A stretch of 1,130 nucleotides of DNA from Naegleria gruberi (lineage: Eukaryota). Below the pieces are notes generated by a model. It did no database searches, had not been told where the DNA came from, and was given only the letters and a program-made list of their open reading frames with translations. The stretch is from the NCBI GenBank assembly GCA_000004985.1, contig GG739540.1. One strand, written 5' to 3'. Positions 1 to 1,130 of this stretch are shown here, piece by piece; positions within the stretch are counted from its first letter, which is position 1; each line of letters starts with the position of its first letter. Both the position numbers and the translations under genes were made by a program.

Positions 1-252
1 TTAACTGAGAGATTTGTGGAGGGGAACAGAGAGAGACGTATTCCTGCATCAGATTTACCATCCCTCCTACAAAAAGTTGGTCTTCCCGCTATACAAACTG
101 TTGAATGGCCAGAAGATGAACACAGAAAGAAGAAGGAAGCTGAAAGAGAAGAAAATGCAAAGAATACCAAGACTAAACGTACTCGTAAGATGAATGTCAA
201 GAAGATGACCAATAAGCACTTGGCTGAAGAATTTGTTGCTCACCAAAAGTAA
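1..252 (+). CDS. 3'-terminal fragment of a protein-coding gene; the 5' end lies upstream of the window. It encodes a basic Lys/Arg-rich C-terminal tail (...EDEHRKKKEAEREENAKNTKTKRTRKMNVKKMTNKHLAEEFVAHQK*), plausibly a nuclear or nucleolar RNA-associated protein.
   Basis: Frame 1 is open from base 1 (TTA ACT GAG ...) to TAA at 250-252. The GTG at 16 that the ORF track uses as a start is internal. G+C is about 40% here against about 23% in the flanking non-coding DNA. Codon choice is consistent with that of a highly expressed eukaryotic gene (AAG, AGA/CGT, GCT, GTT, CCA, CAA). The basic cluster KRTRK...KK resembles a nuclear localisation signal. I do not recognise the protein family from memory. 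Confidence 0.8.
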   Translation, partial: LTERFVEGNRERRIPASDLPSLLQKVGLPAIQTVEWPEDEHRKKKEAEREENAKNTKTKRTRKMNVKKMTNKHLAEEFVAHQK

Positions 253-261
253 ATATTCAAA

Positions 262-284
262 GTTTTTTGACATGATCAAAAAAC
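262..284. repeat. Perfect 9-bp inverted repeat (hairpin) GTTTTTTGA-catga-TCAAAAAAC, located 10 nt after the stop codon of the upstream gene and flanked by AGTTTT on both sides (261-266 and 285-290).
   Basis: Pairing checked base by base: 262-270 pairs with 276-284 over nine Watson-Crick pairs around a 5-nt loop at 271-275. It is followed by AGTTTTAC. The stem has only two G:C pairs, so it is weak as a bacterial intrinsic terminator. In a eukaryote it would sit in the 3' UTR. Confidence 0.6.
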
Positions 285-392
285 AGTTTTACTTCATAAC
301 AAAAGAGGGTAGAAATTAATTATGTGTGTTATTGATGTATTAAATTGGGAATGTTTTGTATTATTCGAAATAATATTAATAAGGTGATATTC

Positions 393-433
393 TAAATTTG
401 GTAATTTACAAAGTAATTTCAAATCAATTTCAC
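393..433. repeat. Helically phased AATTT tracts (395-399, 403-407, 415-419, 426-430), forming three copies of the 9-mer [T/C]AATTT[A/C][C/A][A/C] at 402, 414 and 425.
   Basis: The tracts are read directly from the sequence. The three spacings are 8, 12 and 11 nt, so only the last two match the roughly 10.5-bp helical repeat. The block lies in the 23% G+C intergenic region. Confidence 0.4.
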
Positions 434-485
434 TAATAGGATTACAAAAGGTTAAATCTCTCAATGTTGATATTTTAGAAATGTA

Positions 486-602
486 ATGAAATATATTCTT
501 ATTCTTAATAATGCTTCACAAATATGGTCCAACCCAAGCAACGGAATTTACGATGAGGATGTAGCTTTTGAATTAAGAGATGATTATGATGTTCAAGTCT
601 GA
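486..602 (+). CDS. Small ORF of 38 aa (MKYILILNNASQIWSNPSNGIYDEDVAFELRDDYDVQV*). It may be a chance ORF, an upstream ORF, or a micro-exon.
   Basis: Frame 3 is open from 471 to TGA at 600-602. The second half (511-600) has higher G+C, about 37%, and an acidic, protein-like C-terminus. No ribosome-binding site is present. An open run of this length is expected several times by chance in a window of this composition. Confidence 0.12.
   Translation: MKYILILNNASQIWSNPSNGIYDEDVAFELRDDYDVQV
495..506. repeat. Tandem duplication of ATTCTT, two copies.
   Basis: ATTCTT at 495-500 is immediately repeated at 501-506. Confidence 0.5.
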
Positions 603-615
603 CTGTTCTGATGAG

Positions 616-622
616 TTATAAG
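616..622 (+). promoter_or_regulatory. TATA-like element (TTATAAG) about 70 bp upstream of ATG 692.
   Basis: This is a sequence match only. The position fits a eukaryotic core promoter for the ORF that starts at 692. Confidence 0.12.
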
Positions 623-637
623 AAGCCTAAGAATTAG

Positions 638-643
638 ATTTGA
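638..643 (+). promoter_or_regulatory. AATAAA hexamer. It could be a polyadenylation signal for a transcript ending at about 655-670, or a chance match.
   Basis: This is the only canonical AATAAA between the stop at 252 and ATG 692. AT-rich DNA yields such hexamers often. Confidence 0.12.
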
Positions 644-691
644 TGAAAATAAATAAGTCTATTTCATGGTTTTACTGTTATTTACGATTAG

Positions 692-955
692 ATGAATCTT
701 CCACTCAGAGATTCACATGCTCTTTATTTTAGCGAAGTCTCTTTTTTCACTGAGAATTTTCTTGTGGTGTTTAAGGTCCTCACTTTAATTGCTGCATTCT
801 CTCTCATCCAAAACAACCCTACTACAGAATTTAAAAAAAATGGTAAGAGTGATTATAGAAAATACACTCTCGTATTGAATGTAAAAGACGTTAATACTTT
901 ACCTAAAGGTCTCAAGAGCAAACTTGTTAAGAGTTTGGAAAATGTAAGTAACTAG
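692..955 (+). CDS. Hypothetical ORF of 87 aa (ATG 692 to TAG 955). It may be exon 1 (692..943) of a spliced gene that continues at 978. The N-terminal half is hydrophobic (FLVVFKVLTLIAAFSLI) and the C-terminal half is Lys-rich.
   Basis: This is the only long open frame in 253-1130 on either strand, and the minus strand here is full of stops. G+C is about 33% versus about 23% upstream. The ATG directly follows an in-frame TAG at 689-691. No Shine-Dalgarno sequence lies upstream. Chance expectation for an 88-codon open run in DNA this AT-rich is about 0.1-0.2 per window, so support is marginal. A GTAAGT sits at 944-949 immediately before the stop. Confidence 0.35.
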   Translation: MNLPLRDSHALYFSEVSFFTENFLVVFKVLTLIAAFSLIQNNPTTEFKKNGKSDYRKYTLVLNVKDVNTLPKGLKSKLVKSLENVSN

Positions 956-977
956 AAGTTTTTGGCTGACAACATAG
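944..977 (+). other. Candidate short spliceosomal intron. The alternative 3' end is 980.
   Basis: GTAAGT at 944-949 matches the canonical 5' splice site. CTGAC at 969-973 matches the CTRAY branch-point consensus. TAG at 975-977 and CAG at 978-980 lie 4-7 nt downstream of it. Removal keeps 692..943 (phase 0 at the AAT codon 941-943) in frame with 978..1130. Lengths of 34 to 37 nt are within the range of the shortest fungal, fission-yeast-type introns. Confidence 0.3.
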
Positions 978-1130
978 CAGAATTCATTTGTTGGGTTACA
1001 TGGACGGGTACTTAGAAATTATGATGATGAGAGAAAATGCTGCATTATTAAAATTGTAATGGGAAATCCATACGGAAAAGTATTGGATTGGGAACTTTCA
1101 GAAGATACTATAAAAAGTTGTTTCGAACTT
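978..1130 (+). CDS. Open reading frame (frame 3) that runs off the right edge of the window: QNSFVGLHGRVLRNYDDERKCCIIKIVMGNPYGKVLDWELSEDTIKSCFEL... It is a candidate downstream exon of the gene that starts at 692.
   Basis: After the TAG at 975-977 there is no stop through 1130. G+C is about 33%. GGA is used for Gly three times. This frame has no ATG before 1050 (the nearby ATG run at 1021-1029 is in a different frame), so as a standalone gene it would be only a 27-aa fragment; that favours an exon interpretation. It is in frame with 692..943 if 944..977 or 944..980 is removed. Confidence 0.25.

What the first reader, a model, noticed from the sequence alone, without database searches (positions are those of the whole stretch)
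1..1130. The window looks eukaryotic, with short introns and AT-rich intergenic DNA, rather than prokaryotic
Three observations support this. No AGGAGG-like ribosome-binding site sits upstream of any candidate ATG (692, 486, 1050). About 440 bp of 23% G+C sequence, saturated with stops, lies between a gene's 3' end and the next ORF. Canonical spliceosomal signals (GTAAGT and GTAAGA donors, a CTRAY branch, YAG acceptors) occur exactly where frames change. The upstream gene also ends in a long KR-rich, NLS-like tail typical of nuclear proteins. The ORF track supplied uses GTG as a start, as for a prokaryotic caller, and would mis-annotate this locus.
Basis: partly seen in the sequence, partly recalled or inferred. 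Interest (0 to 1): 0.5.

Follow-up and report, generated by a model that had tools for sequence, protein, structure and literature searches.

The report
Naegleria nuclear DNA, not prokaryotic

Summary
The eukaryotic reading holds. Translated in frame 1, nt 28-249 are 100% identical over 74 residues to the C-terminus of the annotated Naegleria gruberi TFIIE-beta subunit. The only other relatives are N. fowleri, Willaertia magna and one metagenome protein. All four searched homologues carry the TFA2 winged-helix-2 domain, and their profile hits human TFIIE-beta in the PDB.

Downstream lies a 587-nt spacer of 27.9% G+C. Its 253-691 stretch is 25.7% G+C, with 7-19 stops in each of the six frames and no Shine-Dalgarno-like motif.

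After the spacer begins a gene related (88% nt identity) to N. gruberi NAEGRDRAFT_45348. The proposed intron 944-980 (GTAAGT...CTGAC...CAG, 37 nt) is corroborated by comparison. Its counterpart in a related metagenome contig is 41 nt long. All indels fall in the intron or upstream of exon A. Splicing restores the frame in both sequences, and the flanking exons give dN/dS of about 0.15.

Not supported:
- GTAAGA at 843 or 185 as splice donors.
- ORF 692-955 as a reliable first exon.
- Splice-motif counts as evidence on their own; they are at chance level.

No bacterial, archaeal, phage or plasmid relative was found. This is known biology from a sequenced organism, so interest is low. Small by-products are a probably 5'-truncated reference gene model and apparent sequence errors at the window's 5' end.

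The parts
1..252 (+). 3' end of the TFIIE-beta (Tfa2) gene. Frame 1 from nt 28 to 249 encodes RERRIPASDLPSLLQKVGLPAIQTVEWPEDEHRKKKEAEREENAKNTKTKRTRKMNVKKMTNKHLAEEFVAHQK, followed by stop TAA at 250-252. Nt 5-28 encode the preceding LRDLWRGT, but in frame 2, with TAA at 2-4.
   Evidence: phmmer gave the best hit at E 8e-40 and 97% identity, to N. gruberi XP_002668371.1, which clusters with XP_002682618.1, named 'transcription initiation factor IIE beta subunit'. PF18121 is present in all four searched homologues. Their profile hits human TFIIE-beta in the PDB at E 2.4e-6.
1..36 (+). Apparent stop plus a 1-nt deletion relative to the N. gruberi TFIIE-beta coding sequence. TAA stands where Lys is expected, and ACAGAGAGAGA stands where ACAAGAGAGAGA is expected.
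   Evidence: The six-frame translation was compared with P0002 and P0006, which read ..VDVKLRDLWRGTRERRIP... The position at the window edge suggests a sequence or assembly error. A pseudogene is not excluded.
253..839 (.). AT-rich intergenic DNA: the 3' UTR of TFIIE-beta plus the promoter and 5' leader of the next gene. It has no conserved ORF. Nt 802-839 are alignable to the relative but contain a 3-nt indel.
   Evidence: G+C is 27.9% overall and 25.7% for 253-691, with 7-19 stops per frame. There is no similarity to L001 upstream of 802. No Rfam family or tRNA was found. No intrinsic terminator was found, and sigma-70-like sites are below shuffle expectation.
692..847 (+). Frame-2 ORF extension (MNLPLRDSH...EFKKNGK) upstream of exon A. 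It is probably non-coding leader, and its status is unresolved.
   Evidence: It is not conserved in L001. Upstream of the 4-nt indel at 846/847 the two sequences are read in different frames. It is T-rich, with AT skew of -0.25 to -0.37.
840..842 (+). ATG homologous to the likely start codon of the related gene (context AAAAAAAATGG). In the window it is out of frame with exon A because of a 4-nt indel.
   Evidence: The blastn alignment shows window ATGGTA----AGAGT against L001 ATGGTAGGAAAGAGT.
848..943 (+). Exon A, frame 2: SDYRKYTLVLNVKDVNTLPKGLKSKLVKSLEN.
   Evidence: It is 93% identical to L001 with no indels. The 7 substitutions fall at codon positions 1/2/3 as 2/0/5, dN/dS is 0.08, and the other frames contain stops.
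944..980 (+). 37-nt GT-AG spliceosomal intron: GTAAGTAACTAGAAGTTTTTGGCTGACAACATAGCAG. Donor GTAAGT, CTGAC at 966-970, acceptor CAG.
   Evidence: The L001 counterpart is 41 nt long (2316-2356), with the same GTAAGT and CAG ends. The intron carries 1-nt and 3-nt indels and 16% mismatches, against 7-8% in the exons. Removing it joins frame 2 to frame 3 in the window and restores the corresponding frames in L001. Read through, the window hits TAG at 953.
981..1130 (+). Exon B, frame 3: NSFVGLHGRVLRNYDDERKCCIIKIVMGNPYGKVLDWELSEDTIKSCFEL, which runs off the window. It contains ATG 1059-1061, the start of the reference N. gruberi model for the homologue.
   Evidence: It is 92% identical to L001 with no indels. 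Substitutions fall at positions 1/2/3 as 2/3/7, and dN/dS is 0.21. tblastn of N. gruberi XP_002682597.1 residues 1-23 matches 1059-1127 at 83% identity.

Best explanation
The window is a piece of nuclear genome from Naegleria, either N. gruberi or a very close relative (Heterolobosea, Discoba).

It holds three things. First, the last ~80 codons of the TFIIE-beta gene, whose basic K/R-rich C-terminal tail is a normal feature of that nuclear protein. Second, a ~590-nt AT-rich intergenic region. Third, the 5' part of a Naegleria-specific gene of unknown function that belongs to the family of N. gruberi NAEGRDRAFT_45348. In that gene a first coding exon (to nt 943) is joined to a second (from nt 981) by removal of a 37-nt canonical GT-AG intron.

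Shown: the identity of the upstream gene and hence the taxon, the lack of prokaryotic or viral relatives in the collections searched, and the coding-type conservation of both exons with indels confined to the intron.

Inferred: that splicing actually occurs, and where translation of the downstream gene starts. In the window copy the homologous ATG is out of frame.
For: Upstream gene and taxon:
- An exhaustive phmmer search of window residues 1-83 against 1.84 billion representatives returned only four hits. They are N. gruberi (97%; 100% over the last 74 residues), N. fowleri (72%), Willaertia magna (61%) and one JGI metagenome protein (46%).
- The N. gruberi cluster member is named 'transcription initiation factor IIE beta subunit'.
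- All four searched homologues pass the Pfam cutoff for PF18121 TFA2_Winged_2.
- Their profile hits human TFIIE-beta PDB chains at E 2.4e-6. The alignment runs through the LWR...LLQKxG segment that the window encodes.

Composition: window G+C is 31.8%, against 33% for the N. gruberi genome (PMC8296547 Table 2).

Intron:
- The blastn alignment to L001 is 88% identical over 802-1127. Indels occur only in 944-980 (1 nt and 3 nt) and upstream of 848 (3 nt and 4 nt).
- Intron length is 37 nt against 41 nt. Both copies keep GTAAGT...CAG, and both restore the reading frame on removal.
- 12 of 19 exon substitutions fall at third positions (P=0.007). dN/dS is 0.15 at dS 0.27.
- The L001 gene products share a 90% cluster with N. 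gruberi XP_002682597.1, whose model has a further ~200-nt GTAAGG...CAG intron.

Prokaryotic features: there is no SD motif, no intrinsic terminator, and no hit in phages, plasmids, GTDB genomes or IMG/VR.
Against: - No RNA evidence was available, and only one comparison sequence supports the intron.
- The branch-like CTGAC is not conserved in L001, which has CCAAC.
- The reference N. gruberi model for the homologue starts at the Met equivalent to ATG 1059, so the official annotation contains neither exon A nor this intron.
- In the window the conserved ATG (840) is out of frame with exon A.
- The first 30 nt carry a stop and a frameshift relative to N. gruberi TFIIE-beta. The sequence is therefore not a clean copy of the reference genome.
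- The exact window was not found in any DNA collection available here. None of them holds eukaryotic genomes, so species and strain rest on protein identity alone.
Confidence: 0.9

Rival explanations
1. The DNA is eukaryotic (Naegleria), but 944-980 is not an intron. Translation of the downstream gene starts at ATG 1059, as in the reference N. gruberi model, and 802-1058 is a conserved 5' leader or promoter.
For: The N. gruberi model XP_002682597.1 begins MGNPYGKVLDW, which is equivalent to window ATG 1059. In the window ATG 840 is out of frame with 'exon A'. Splice-motif counts are at chance level.
Against: The 58 codons upstream of ATG 1059, read in the spliced frames, give dN/dS of 0.11, with 8 of 12 substitutions at third positions (P=0.019) and no indels. 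The 37/41-nt stretch between them takes two indels and twice the mismatch rate. In a single-sequence AF2 model of low confidence (pLDDT 64), Met61 (ATG 1059) sits inside a beta-strand of a beta-alpha-beta-beta-alpha unit that spans both exons.
Confidence: 0.12
2. The window is a damaged copy: either a young pseudogene or duplicated segment in a Naegleria genome, or an error-laden read or contig. It would not be an intact functional locus.
For: There is a stop and a 1-nt deletion relative to TFIIE-beta within nt 1-36. A 4-nt indel puts the conserved start ATG out of frame. The downstream gene is only 83% identical over its first 23 residues to the N. gruberi homologue, whereas the TFIIE-beta tail is 100% identical. 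The homologue's upstream neighbour in L001 is a different, divergently transcribed gene. Together these suggest a paralogue or a rearrangement.
Against: The 74 TFIIE-beta codens after the frameshift are intact and identical, and the exon A and B substitutions look selected. Both TFIIE-beta defects lie at the extreme window edge, where assembly errors concentrate. This rival is compatible with the main explanation and only qualifies it.
Confidence: 0.3
3. The DNA is prokaryotic, phage or giant-virus DNA with compact, unspliced genes. In the relative a 75-aa ORF overlaps the next ORF by TAATG.
For: A prokaryote-style caller produced contiguous ORFs of 75, 280 and 472 aa on L001, with an ATG/TAA overlap at the position equivalent to window 1057-1061.
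Against: The 75-aa ORF reads through the intron in a frame where 9 of 10 codon changes in the exon B region are non-synonymous, and the window has TAG at 953. The three ORFs are parts of one N. gruberi protein. The upstream gene is TFIIE-beta, here 100% identical to the annotated N. gruberi protein. There are no hits in phages, plasmids, IMG/VR or GTDB genomes, no SD motif and no terminator.
Confidence: 0.01

Closest known systems
Naegleria gruberi transcription initiation factor IIE beta subunit (XP_002682618.1 / EFC49874.1; partial allele XP_002668371.1)
   Same: Window nt 28-249 translate to its last 74 residues without a single difference, including the basic tail and the KMTNKHL motif. 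The stop codon is at the same place.
   Different: Only the C-terminal ~80 codons lie in the window; the winged-helix domains are upstream of it. Nt 1-36 carry a TAA and a 1-nt deletion relative to the reference protein's reading frame.
Human TFIIE-beta (GTF2E2; PDB 5IY6 and others)
   Same: The architecture after WH2 is the same: an LWR motif, an 'xxLLxKxGL/I' segment, then a lysine/arginine-rich tail ending in K-T-(H/N)-N/K-(E)HL. The heterolobosean profile aligns to human residues 143-246. The recalled human C-terminus was verified against the PDB.
   Different: Pairwise BLASTP of the 83-aa fragment against the human tail gives no alignment. The relation is visible only through the profile of full-length homologues.
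Naegleria gruberi NAEGRDRAFT_45348 (XP_002682597.1, 704 aa, 'predicted protein')
   Same: Window 1059-1127 matches its first 23 residues at 83% identity. The metagenome relative L001 matches it at 92-98% identity along its length.
   Different: The window copy is more diverged (88% nt identity to L001) and sits next to TFIIE-beta rather than next to the divergent membrane-protein gene seen in L001. The reference model lacks exon A, the 37/41-nt intron and the first 26 codons of exon B. No Pfam, PDB or fold assignment was obtained.
Canonical U2-type GT-AG spliceosomal introns of Naegleria
   Same: It has a GTAAGT donor, a CAG acceptor and a CTGAC branch-like site 11 nt from the acceptor. The same gene family has an annotated GTAAGG...CAG intron of ~200 nt.
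   Different: At 37 nt it is far shorter than the 203-nt mean reported for N. gruberi (PMC8296547 Table 2). The length distribution was not available to me, so I cannot say whether 37 nt is unusual.

Membership tests
TFIIE-beta / Tfa2 (eukaryotic general transcription factor) | Sequence identity or homology to annotated TFIIE-beta proteins | tested here: met
   The best hit has E 8e-40, is 100% identical over the last 74 residues, and clusters with the annotated N. gruberi TFIIE-beta.
TFIIE-beta / Tfa2 (eukaryotic general transcription factor) | Winged-helix domain 2 (Pfam PF18121) N-terminal to the tail | tested here: inconclusive
   The domain is present above the cutoff in all four searched full-length homologues. 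It lies upstream of nt 1, so it cannot be seen in the window itself. The window fragment alone gives no Pfam hit.
TFIIE-beta / Tfa2 (eukaryotic general transcription factor) | Relation to experimentally solved TFIIE-beta | tested here: met
   The profile of the heterolobosean homologues hits human TFIIE-beta chains at E 2.4e-6 and 6.4e-6. The alignment includes the LWR...LLQKxG segment encoded by window nt 14-100. The fragment alone gives no hit.
TFIIE-beta / Tfa2 (eukaryotic general transcription factor) | Basic (K/R-rich) C-terminal region | tested here: met
   15 of the last 44 residues are K or R. The tail is conserved across the four homologues.
GT-AG spliceosomal intron (window 944-980) | GT at the 5' end and AG at the 3' end, with a consensus-like donor | tested here: met
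   GTAAGT...CAG is found in the window, and the same ends are found in L001.
GT-AG spliceosomal intron (window 944-980) | Removal restores one continuous conserved reading frame | tested here: met
   In the window, removal joins frame 2 to frame 3 (37 nt). In L001 the 41-nt counterpart likewise restores the frame. Unspliced, the window hits TAG at 953.
GT-AG spliceosomal intron (window 944-980) | Relaxed constraint inside relative to the flanking exons | tested here: met
   There are two indels totalling 4 nt and 6 mismatches in 37 nt inside. The exons have no indels and 7-8% mismatch. Exon dN/dS is 0.15. This rests on a single comparison sequence.
GT-AG spliceosomal intron (window 944-980) | Conserved branch-point motif (CTRAY) near the 3' end | tested here: inconclusive
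   CTGAC occurs at 966-970 in the window, but the aligned L001 bases are CCAAC. CTRAY occurs at chance frequency in the window.
GT-AG spliceosomal intron (window 944-980) | Spliced transcripts observed | not testable with these tools
   No RNA-seq access was available. N. gruberi RNA-seq exists under PRJEB23822 (PMC6142364).
Prokaryotic or phage coding region | Shine-Dalgarno motifs, intrinsic terminators and collinear unspliced homologues in prokaryotes or phages | tested here: not met
   There are no SD-like 4-mers upstream of any candidate ATG. No terminators were found, and promoter-like sites are below expectation. There are no hits in phages, plasmids, GTDB genomes or IMG/VR.

The most novel reading that the evidence does not exclude
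The downstream gene would be a previously unannotated or mis-modelled member of a Naegleria-specific family. Its true 5' end would comprise an extra coding exon and an unusually small (37-41 nt) intron that the reference model NAEGRDRAFT_45348 lacks, together encoding a small beta-alpha-beta-beta-alpha N-terminal domain. The window copy, adjacent to TFIIE-beta, would be a diverged paralogue whose start codon has been displaced by a 4-nt indel, making it either a start-shifted gene or a young pseudogene.
Probability: 0.4. Interest if true: 0.15.

Novelty: already known. Interest (0 to 1): 0.1.

Why it matters
Its main use is quality control. It shows that a window fed to a prokaryote-oriented scan is eukaryotic (Naegleria) DNA, and that prokaryotic ORF calling fragments such loci. 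A real example exists in ENA, where one gene was called as ORFs of 75, 280 and 472 aa. The biology is standard: TFIIE-beta, AT-rich intergenic DNA and a GT-AG intron. The only new detail is a probable 5' extension, with a very short intron, for one hypothetical N. gruberi gene model.

Tried and rejected
- **Alternative genetic codes** (tables 4, 6, 10, 12, 25, 27, 30, 31). I considered ciliates because of the short intron and low G+C. I rejected this because the TFIIE-beta tail ends at TAA exactly where the N. gruberi protein ends.
- **Direct Pfam, PDB and BLASTP tests** of the 83-aa fragment against TFIIE-beta. All were negative. My remembered resemblance to the human tail became testable only through the full-length homologues.
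- **Exact-match DNA scans** of IMG/VR, JGI metagenomes and GTDB genomes. Nothing was found.
- **Relatives of the downstream product** in the same three collections. Nothing was found.
- **Word-index protein searches.** One search found nothing. One search found only the ENA read-through ORF P0001. One search found nothing, because the N. gruberi homologue is hidden behind a cluster representative (P0008) that lacks the queried region; this emerged only.
- **A tiny intron after the start codon** (ATG 840 | GTAAGA ... TATAG 858, or other acceptors). No combination restores frame 2, and the relative has GTAGGA there and reads straight through.
- **ORF 486-602 as an exon.** It is not conserved and has no hits.
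- **Homology upstream of 802.** Local alignment scores 43-44 against a shuffle mean of 38 +/- 5.
- **Fold assignment of the spliced N-terminal 84 aa.** AF2 gave pLDDT 64. Foldseek against the PDB gave only weak generic ferredoxin-like matches (ACT, PII), with E >= 0.03 and TM < 0.5. The afdb50 library was unavailable.
- **The Fritz-Laylin 2010 genome paper** is not in the held library.
- **PRJEB11402**, the source of L001, is not mentioned in any held paper.
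Full report
**What is in the window.** The window is 1130 nt at 31.8% G+C. It has three parts.
- A frame-1 reading frame enters from the left edge and stops at TAA 250-252. This part is 40% G+C.
- A stop-rich AT-rich stretch follows. The 253-691 segment is 439 nt at 25.7% G+C, with 7-19 stops in each of the six frames.
- From about 840 to the right edge there are two open stretches: frame 2 up to 955, and frame 3 from 978 onward.

No Shine-Dalgarno-like 4-mer precedes ATG 486, 692, 840 or 1059. 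No intrinsic terminator follows the first gene, and sigma-70-like sites are fewer than in shuffles. No Rfam family or tRNA is present.

**Identity of the upstream gene, and hence of the organism.** The 83-residue C-terminal fragment gave nothing with Pfam, with phmmer against the PDB, or with the word-indexed protein search. From memory it resembled the tail of TFIIE-beta. I verified my recollection of the human tail against the PDB, but pairwise BLASTP to it gave no alignment.

The exhaustive phmmer search of 1.84 billion representatives settled the matter. It returned only four hits:
- P0002, 97% identical, E 8e-40.
- P0003, 72% identical.
- P0004, 61% identical.
- P0005, 46% identical.

The cluster look-up names them. 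P0002 is N. gruberi XP_002668371.1, which shares a cluster with XP_002682618.1, 'transcription initiation factor IIE beta subunit [Naegleria gruberi]'. P0003 is from N. fowleri, P0004 from Willaertia magna, and P0005 from a JGI metagenome.

All four searched homologues carry Pfam PF18121 (TFA2 winged-helix 2) above the curated cutoff. A profile of the full-length N. gruberi protein and the three other homologues hits human TFIIE-beta PDB chains at E 2.4e-6. That alignment runs from WH2 through the 'LWR...LLQKxGL' segment that the window encodes.

Window nt 28-249 translate to the last 74 residues of the N. gruberi protein with no difference, and the stop is in the same place. TFIIE-beta is a eukaryotic general transcription factor (established knowledge). 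N. gruberi belongs to Heterolobosea within Discoba. Its genome is 41 Mb at 33% G+C, with 1.7 exons per gene (PMC8296547, Table 2), which fits the window's composition.

**The downstream gene and the intron.** A word search with the hypothetical spliced product found one protein, P0001. It is a 75-aa product called on ENA metagenome contig ERZ929261 k127_402304, referred to here as L001 (4924 nt). blastn aligns window 802-1127 to L001 2167-2503 at 88% identity. The four indels fall in two places only:
- 3 nt at window 817/818 and 4 nt at 846/847, both upstream of exon A.
- 1 nt and 3 nt inside 944-980.

Blocks 848-943 and 981-1127 have no indels and 7-8% mismatches. The 37-nt stretch between them has 16% mismatches.

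The stretch is GTAAGT...CTGAC...CAG, 37 nt, in the window. In L001 it is GTAAGT...CCAAC...CAG, 41 nt. The lengths differ by 4, which is not a multiple of 3. Even so, removing the stretch joins the upstream open frame to the downstream open frame in both sequences. Read through, the window hits TAG at 953. L001 happens to stay open in a third frame, and that is what the prokaryote-style caller reported as P0001.

In the spliced frames, 12 of 19 substitutions are at third codon positions (binomial P=0.007). NG86 gives dN=0.042, dS=0.275 and dN/dS=0.15. The alternative frames contain stops, or the changes in them are nearly all non-synonymous. The evidence comes from one comparison sequence only, and there is no RNA.

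**Family of the downstream gene.** An exact look-up of the two large L001 products, 280 aa and 472 aa, puts both in one 90% cluster with N. gruberi XP_002682597.1 (NAEGRDRAFT_45348, 704 aa, 'predicted protein'). That protein is encoded on a contig of the same length (1,001,995 nt) as the one carrying TFIIE-beta, so presumably the same scaffold.

tblastn of that protein on L001 gives 92% identity over residues 1-251 and 98.5% over residues 242-704. The two blocks are separated by a GTAAGG...CAG intron of about 200 nt. L001 is therefore an N. gruberi-complex locus, and the ENA caller cut one eukaryotic gene into three ORFs.

The reference model starts at MGNPYGKVLDW, the Met equivalent to window ATG 1059. 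The 58 codons upstream of it (exon A plus 981-1058) show dN/dS of 0.11, with 8 of 12 substitutions at third positions (P=0.019). The reference model is therefore probably 5'-truncated.

Function remains unknown. There are no Pfam hits and no PDB sequence hits. A single-sequence AF2 model has low confidence (pLDDT 64) and a beta-alpha-beta-beta-alpha order. Foldseek gives only weak generic ferredoxin-like matches.

**What is not supported or remains unresolved.**
- Motif counts alone are at chance level: GTAAGT once against 0.5 expected, GTAAGA twice against 0.65, CTRAY four times against 4.3.
- GTAAGA at 185 lies within the collinear TFIIE-beta codons R-K-M.
- GTAAGA at 843 directly follows ATG 840. 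The relative has GTAGGA there and reads straight through (ATG GTA GGA AAG AGT...). No acceptor restores frame 2 in the window.
- Because of the 4-nt indel, the conserved ATG 840 is out of frame with exon A in the window. The frame-2 ORF instead runs back to ATG 692 through T-rich DNA that has no counterpart in L001. The start of the window's copy is therefore unresolved. It could be a start shift to 692 or 1059, a young pseudogene, or a sequence error.
- The first 36 nt contain TAA where N. gruberi has Lys, and they lack one A in ACA(A)GAGAGAGA. LRDLWRGT is consequently in frame 2 and RERRIP... in frame 1. At the very edge of a short sequence this looks like an assembly or sequencing error.
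- The downstream gene is more diverged from N. gruberi than the TFIIE-beta tail is: 83% over 23 residues and dS of about 0.27 to L001, against 100% over 74 residues. Its upstream neighbour also differs from that in L001, which has a divergently transcribed multi-pass membrane protein. The window copy is therefore either a paralogue lying next to TFIIE-beta or the orthologue in another member of the N. gruberi complex. I could not distinguish these without eukaryotic genome DNA.

blastn of the whole window found nothing in 50,697 phage records or 72,556 plasmids. tblastn of the spliced product found nothing in phages. Pattern-plus-tblastn scans for the product found nothing in IMG/VR, in JGI metagenomes, or in one genome per GTDB species. 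No standalone prokaryotic homologue of the 692-955 product was found.

**Verdict.** Novelty is 'already known' and interest is low. The by-products are small:
- A probable 5' extension, with a 37-41-nt intron, for a hypothetical N. gruberi gene model.
- A documented case of prokaryotic gene callers fragmenting a eukaryotic gene in a public metagenome annotation.
- Apparent errors at the window's 5' edge.

Noticed in passing
window 1-36: Relative to N. gruberi TFIIE-beta (..VDVKLRDLWRGTRERRIP..), the window has TAA at 2-4 where Lys is expected and lacks one A in ACA(A)GAGAGAGA. LRDLWRGT is therefore in frame 2 and RERRIP... in frame 1. The stop and frameshift sit at the very edge of the sequence and are probably a contig-end or sequencing error.
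   Followed up: partly
window 840-850; L001 2208-2222: The ATG in the AAAAAAAATGG context is homologous to the likely start codon in L001, but a 4-nt indel (GGAA) puts it out of frame with exon A in the window. The start of the window's gene copy is unresolved: a pseudogene, a start shift or an error.
   Followed up: partly
window 848-1058; L001 2208-2434: The reference N. gruberi model NAEGRDRAFT_45348 (XP_002682597.1) starts at the Met equivalent to window 1059. The ~58 codons upstream, split by the 37/41-nt intron, evolve like coding sequence (dN/dS 0.11), so the reference model is probably 5'-truncated.
   Followed up: partly
L001 2208-4752: The ENA metagenome annotation, made with a prokaryote-style caller, splits one Naegleria gene into products of 75 aa (reading through the intron), 280 aa and 472 aa. 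The apparent TAATG stop/start overlap is an artefact. All three pieces correspond to one 704-aa N. gruberi protein, or to its upstream extension.
   Followed up: yes
L001 about 3158-3360: A second, ~200-nt GTAAGG...CAG intron is implied by the N. gruberi protein model. The protein skips the L001 read-through GKEKIEATRD...LLCK* and resumes at AGSSSSSNRN.
   Followed up: partly
L001 2-1444 (- strand): The upstream neighbour in the related contig is a divergently transcribed protein of more than 481 aa, apparently multi-pass membrane from its sequence, with a Ser-rich N-terminus and no Pfam family. Synteny with the window ends at window nt ~802.
   Followed up: no
window 486-602: A 38-aa ATG ORF (MKYILILNNASQIWSNPSNGIYDEDVAFELRDDYDVQV) coincides with a local G+C bump (34%) inside the spacer. 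It is not conserved in L001 and has no family hits, so it is probably chance.
   Followed up: partly
window 790-808 and 1026-1044: A 19-nt inverted repeat, 89% complementary with arms 217 nt apart, brackets exon A, the intron and the start of exon B. There is also a 21-nt imperfect direct repeat at 102-122 and 191-211 inside the TFIIE-beta tail. Both are probably chance or a compositional effect.
   Followed up: no
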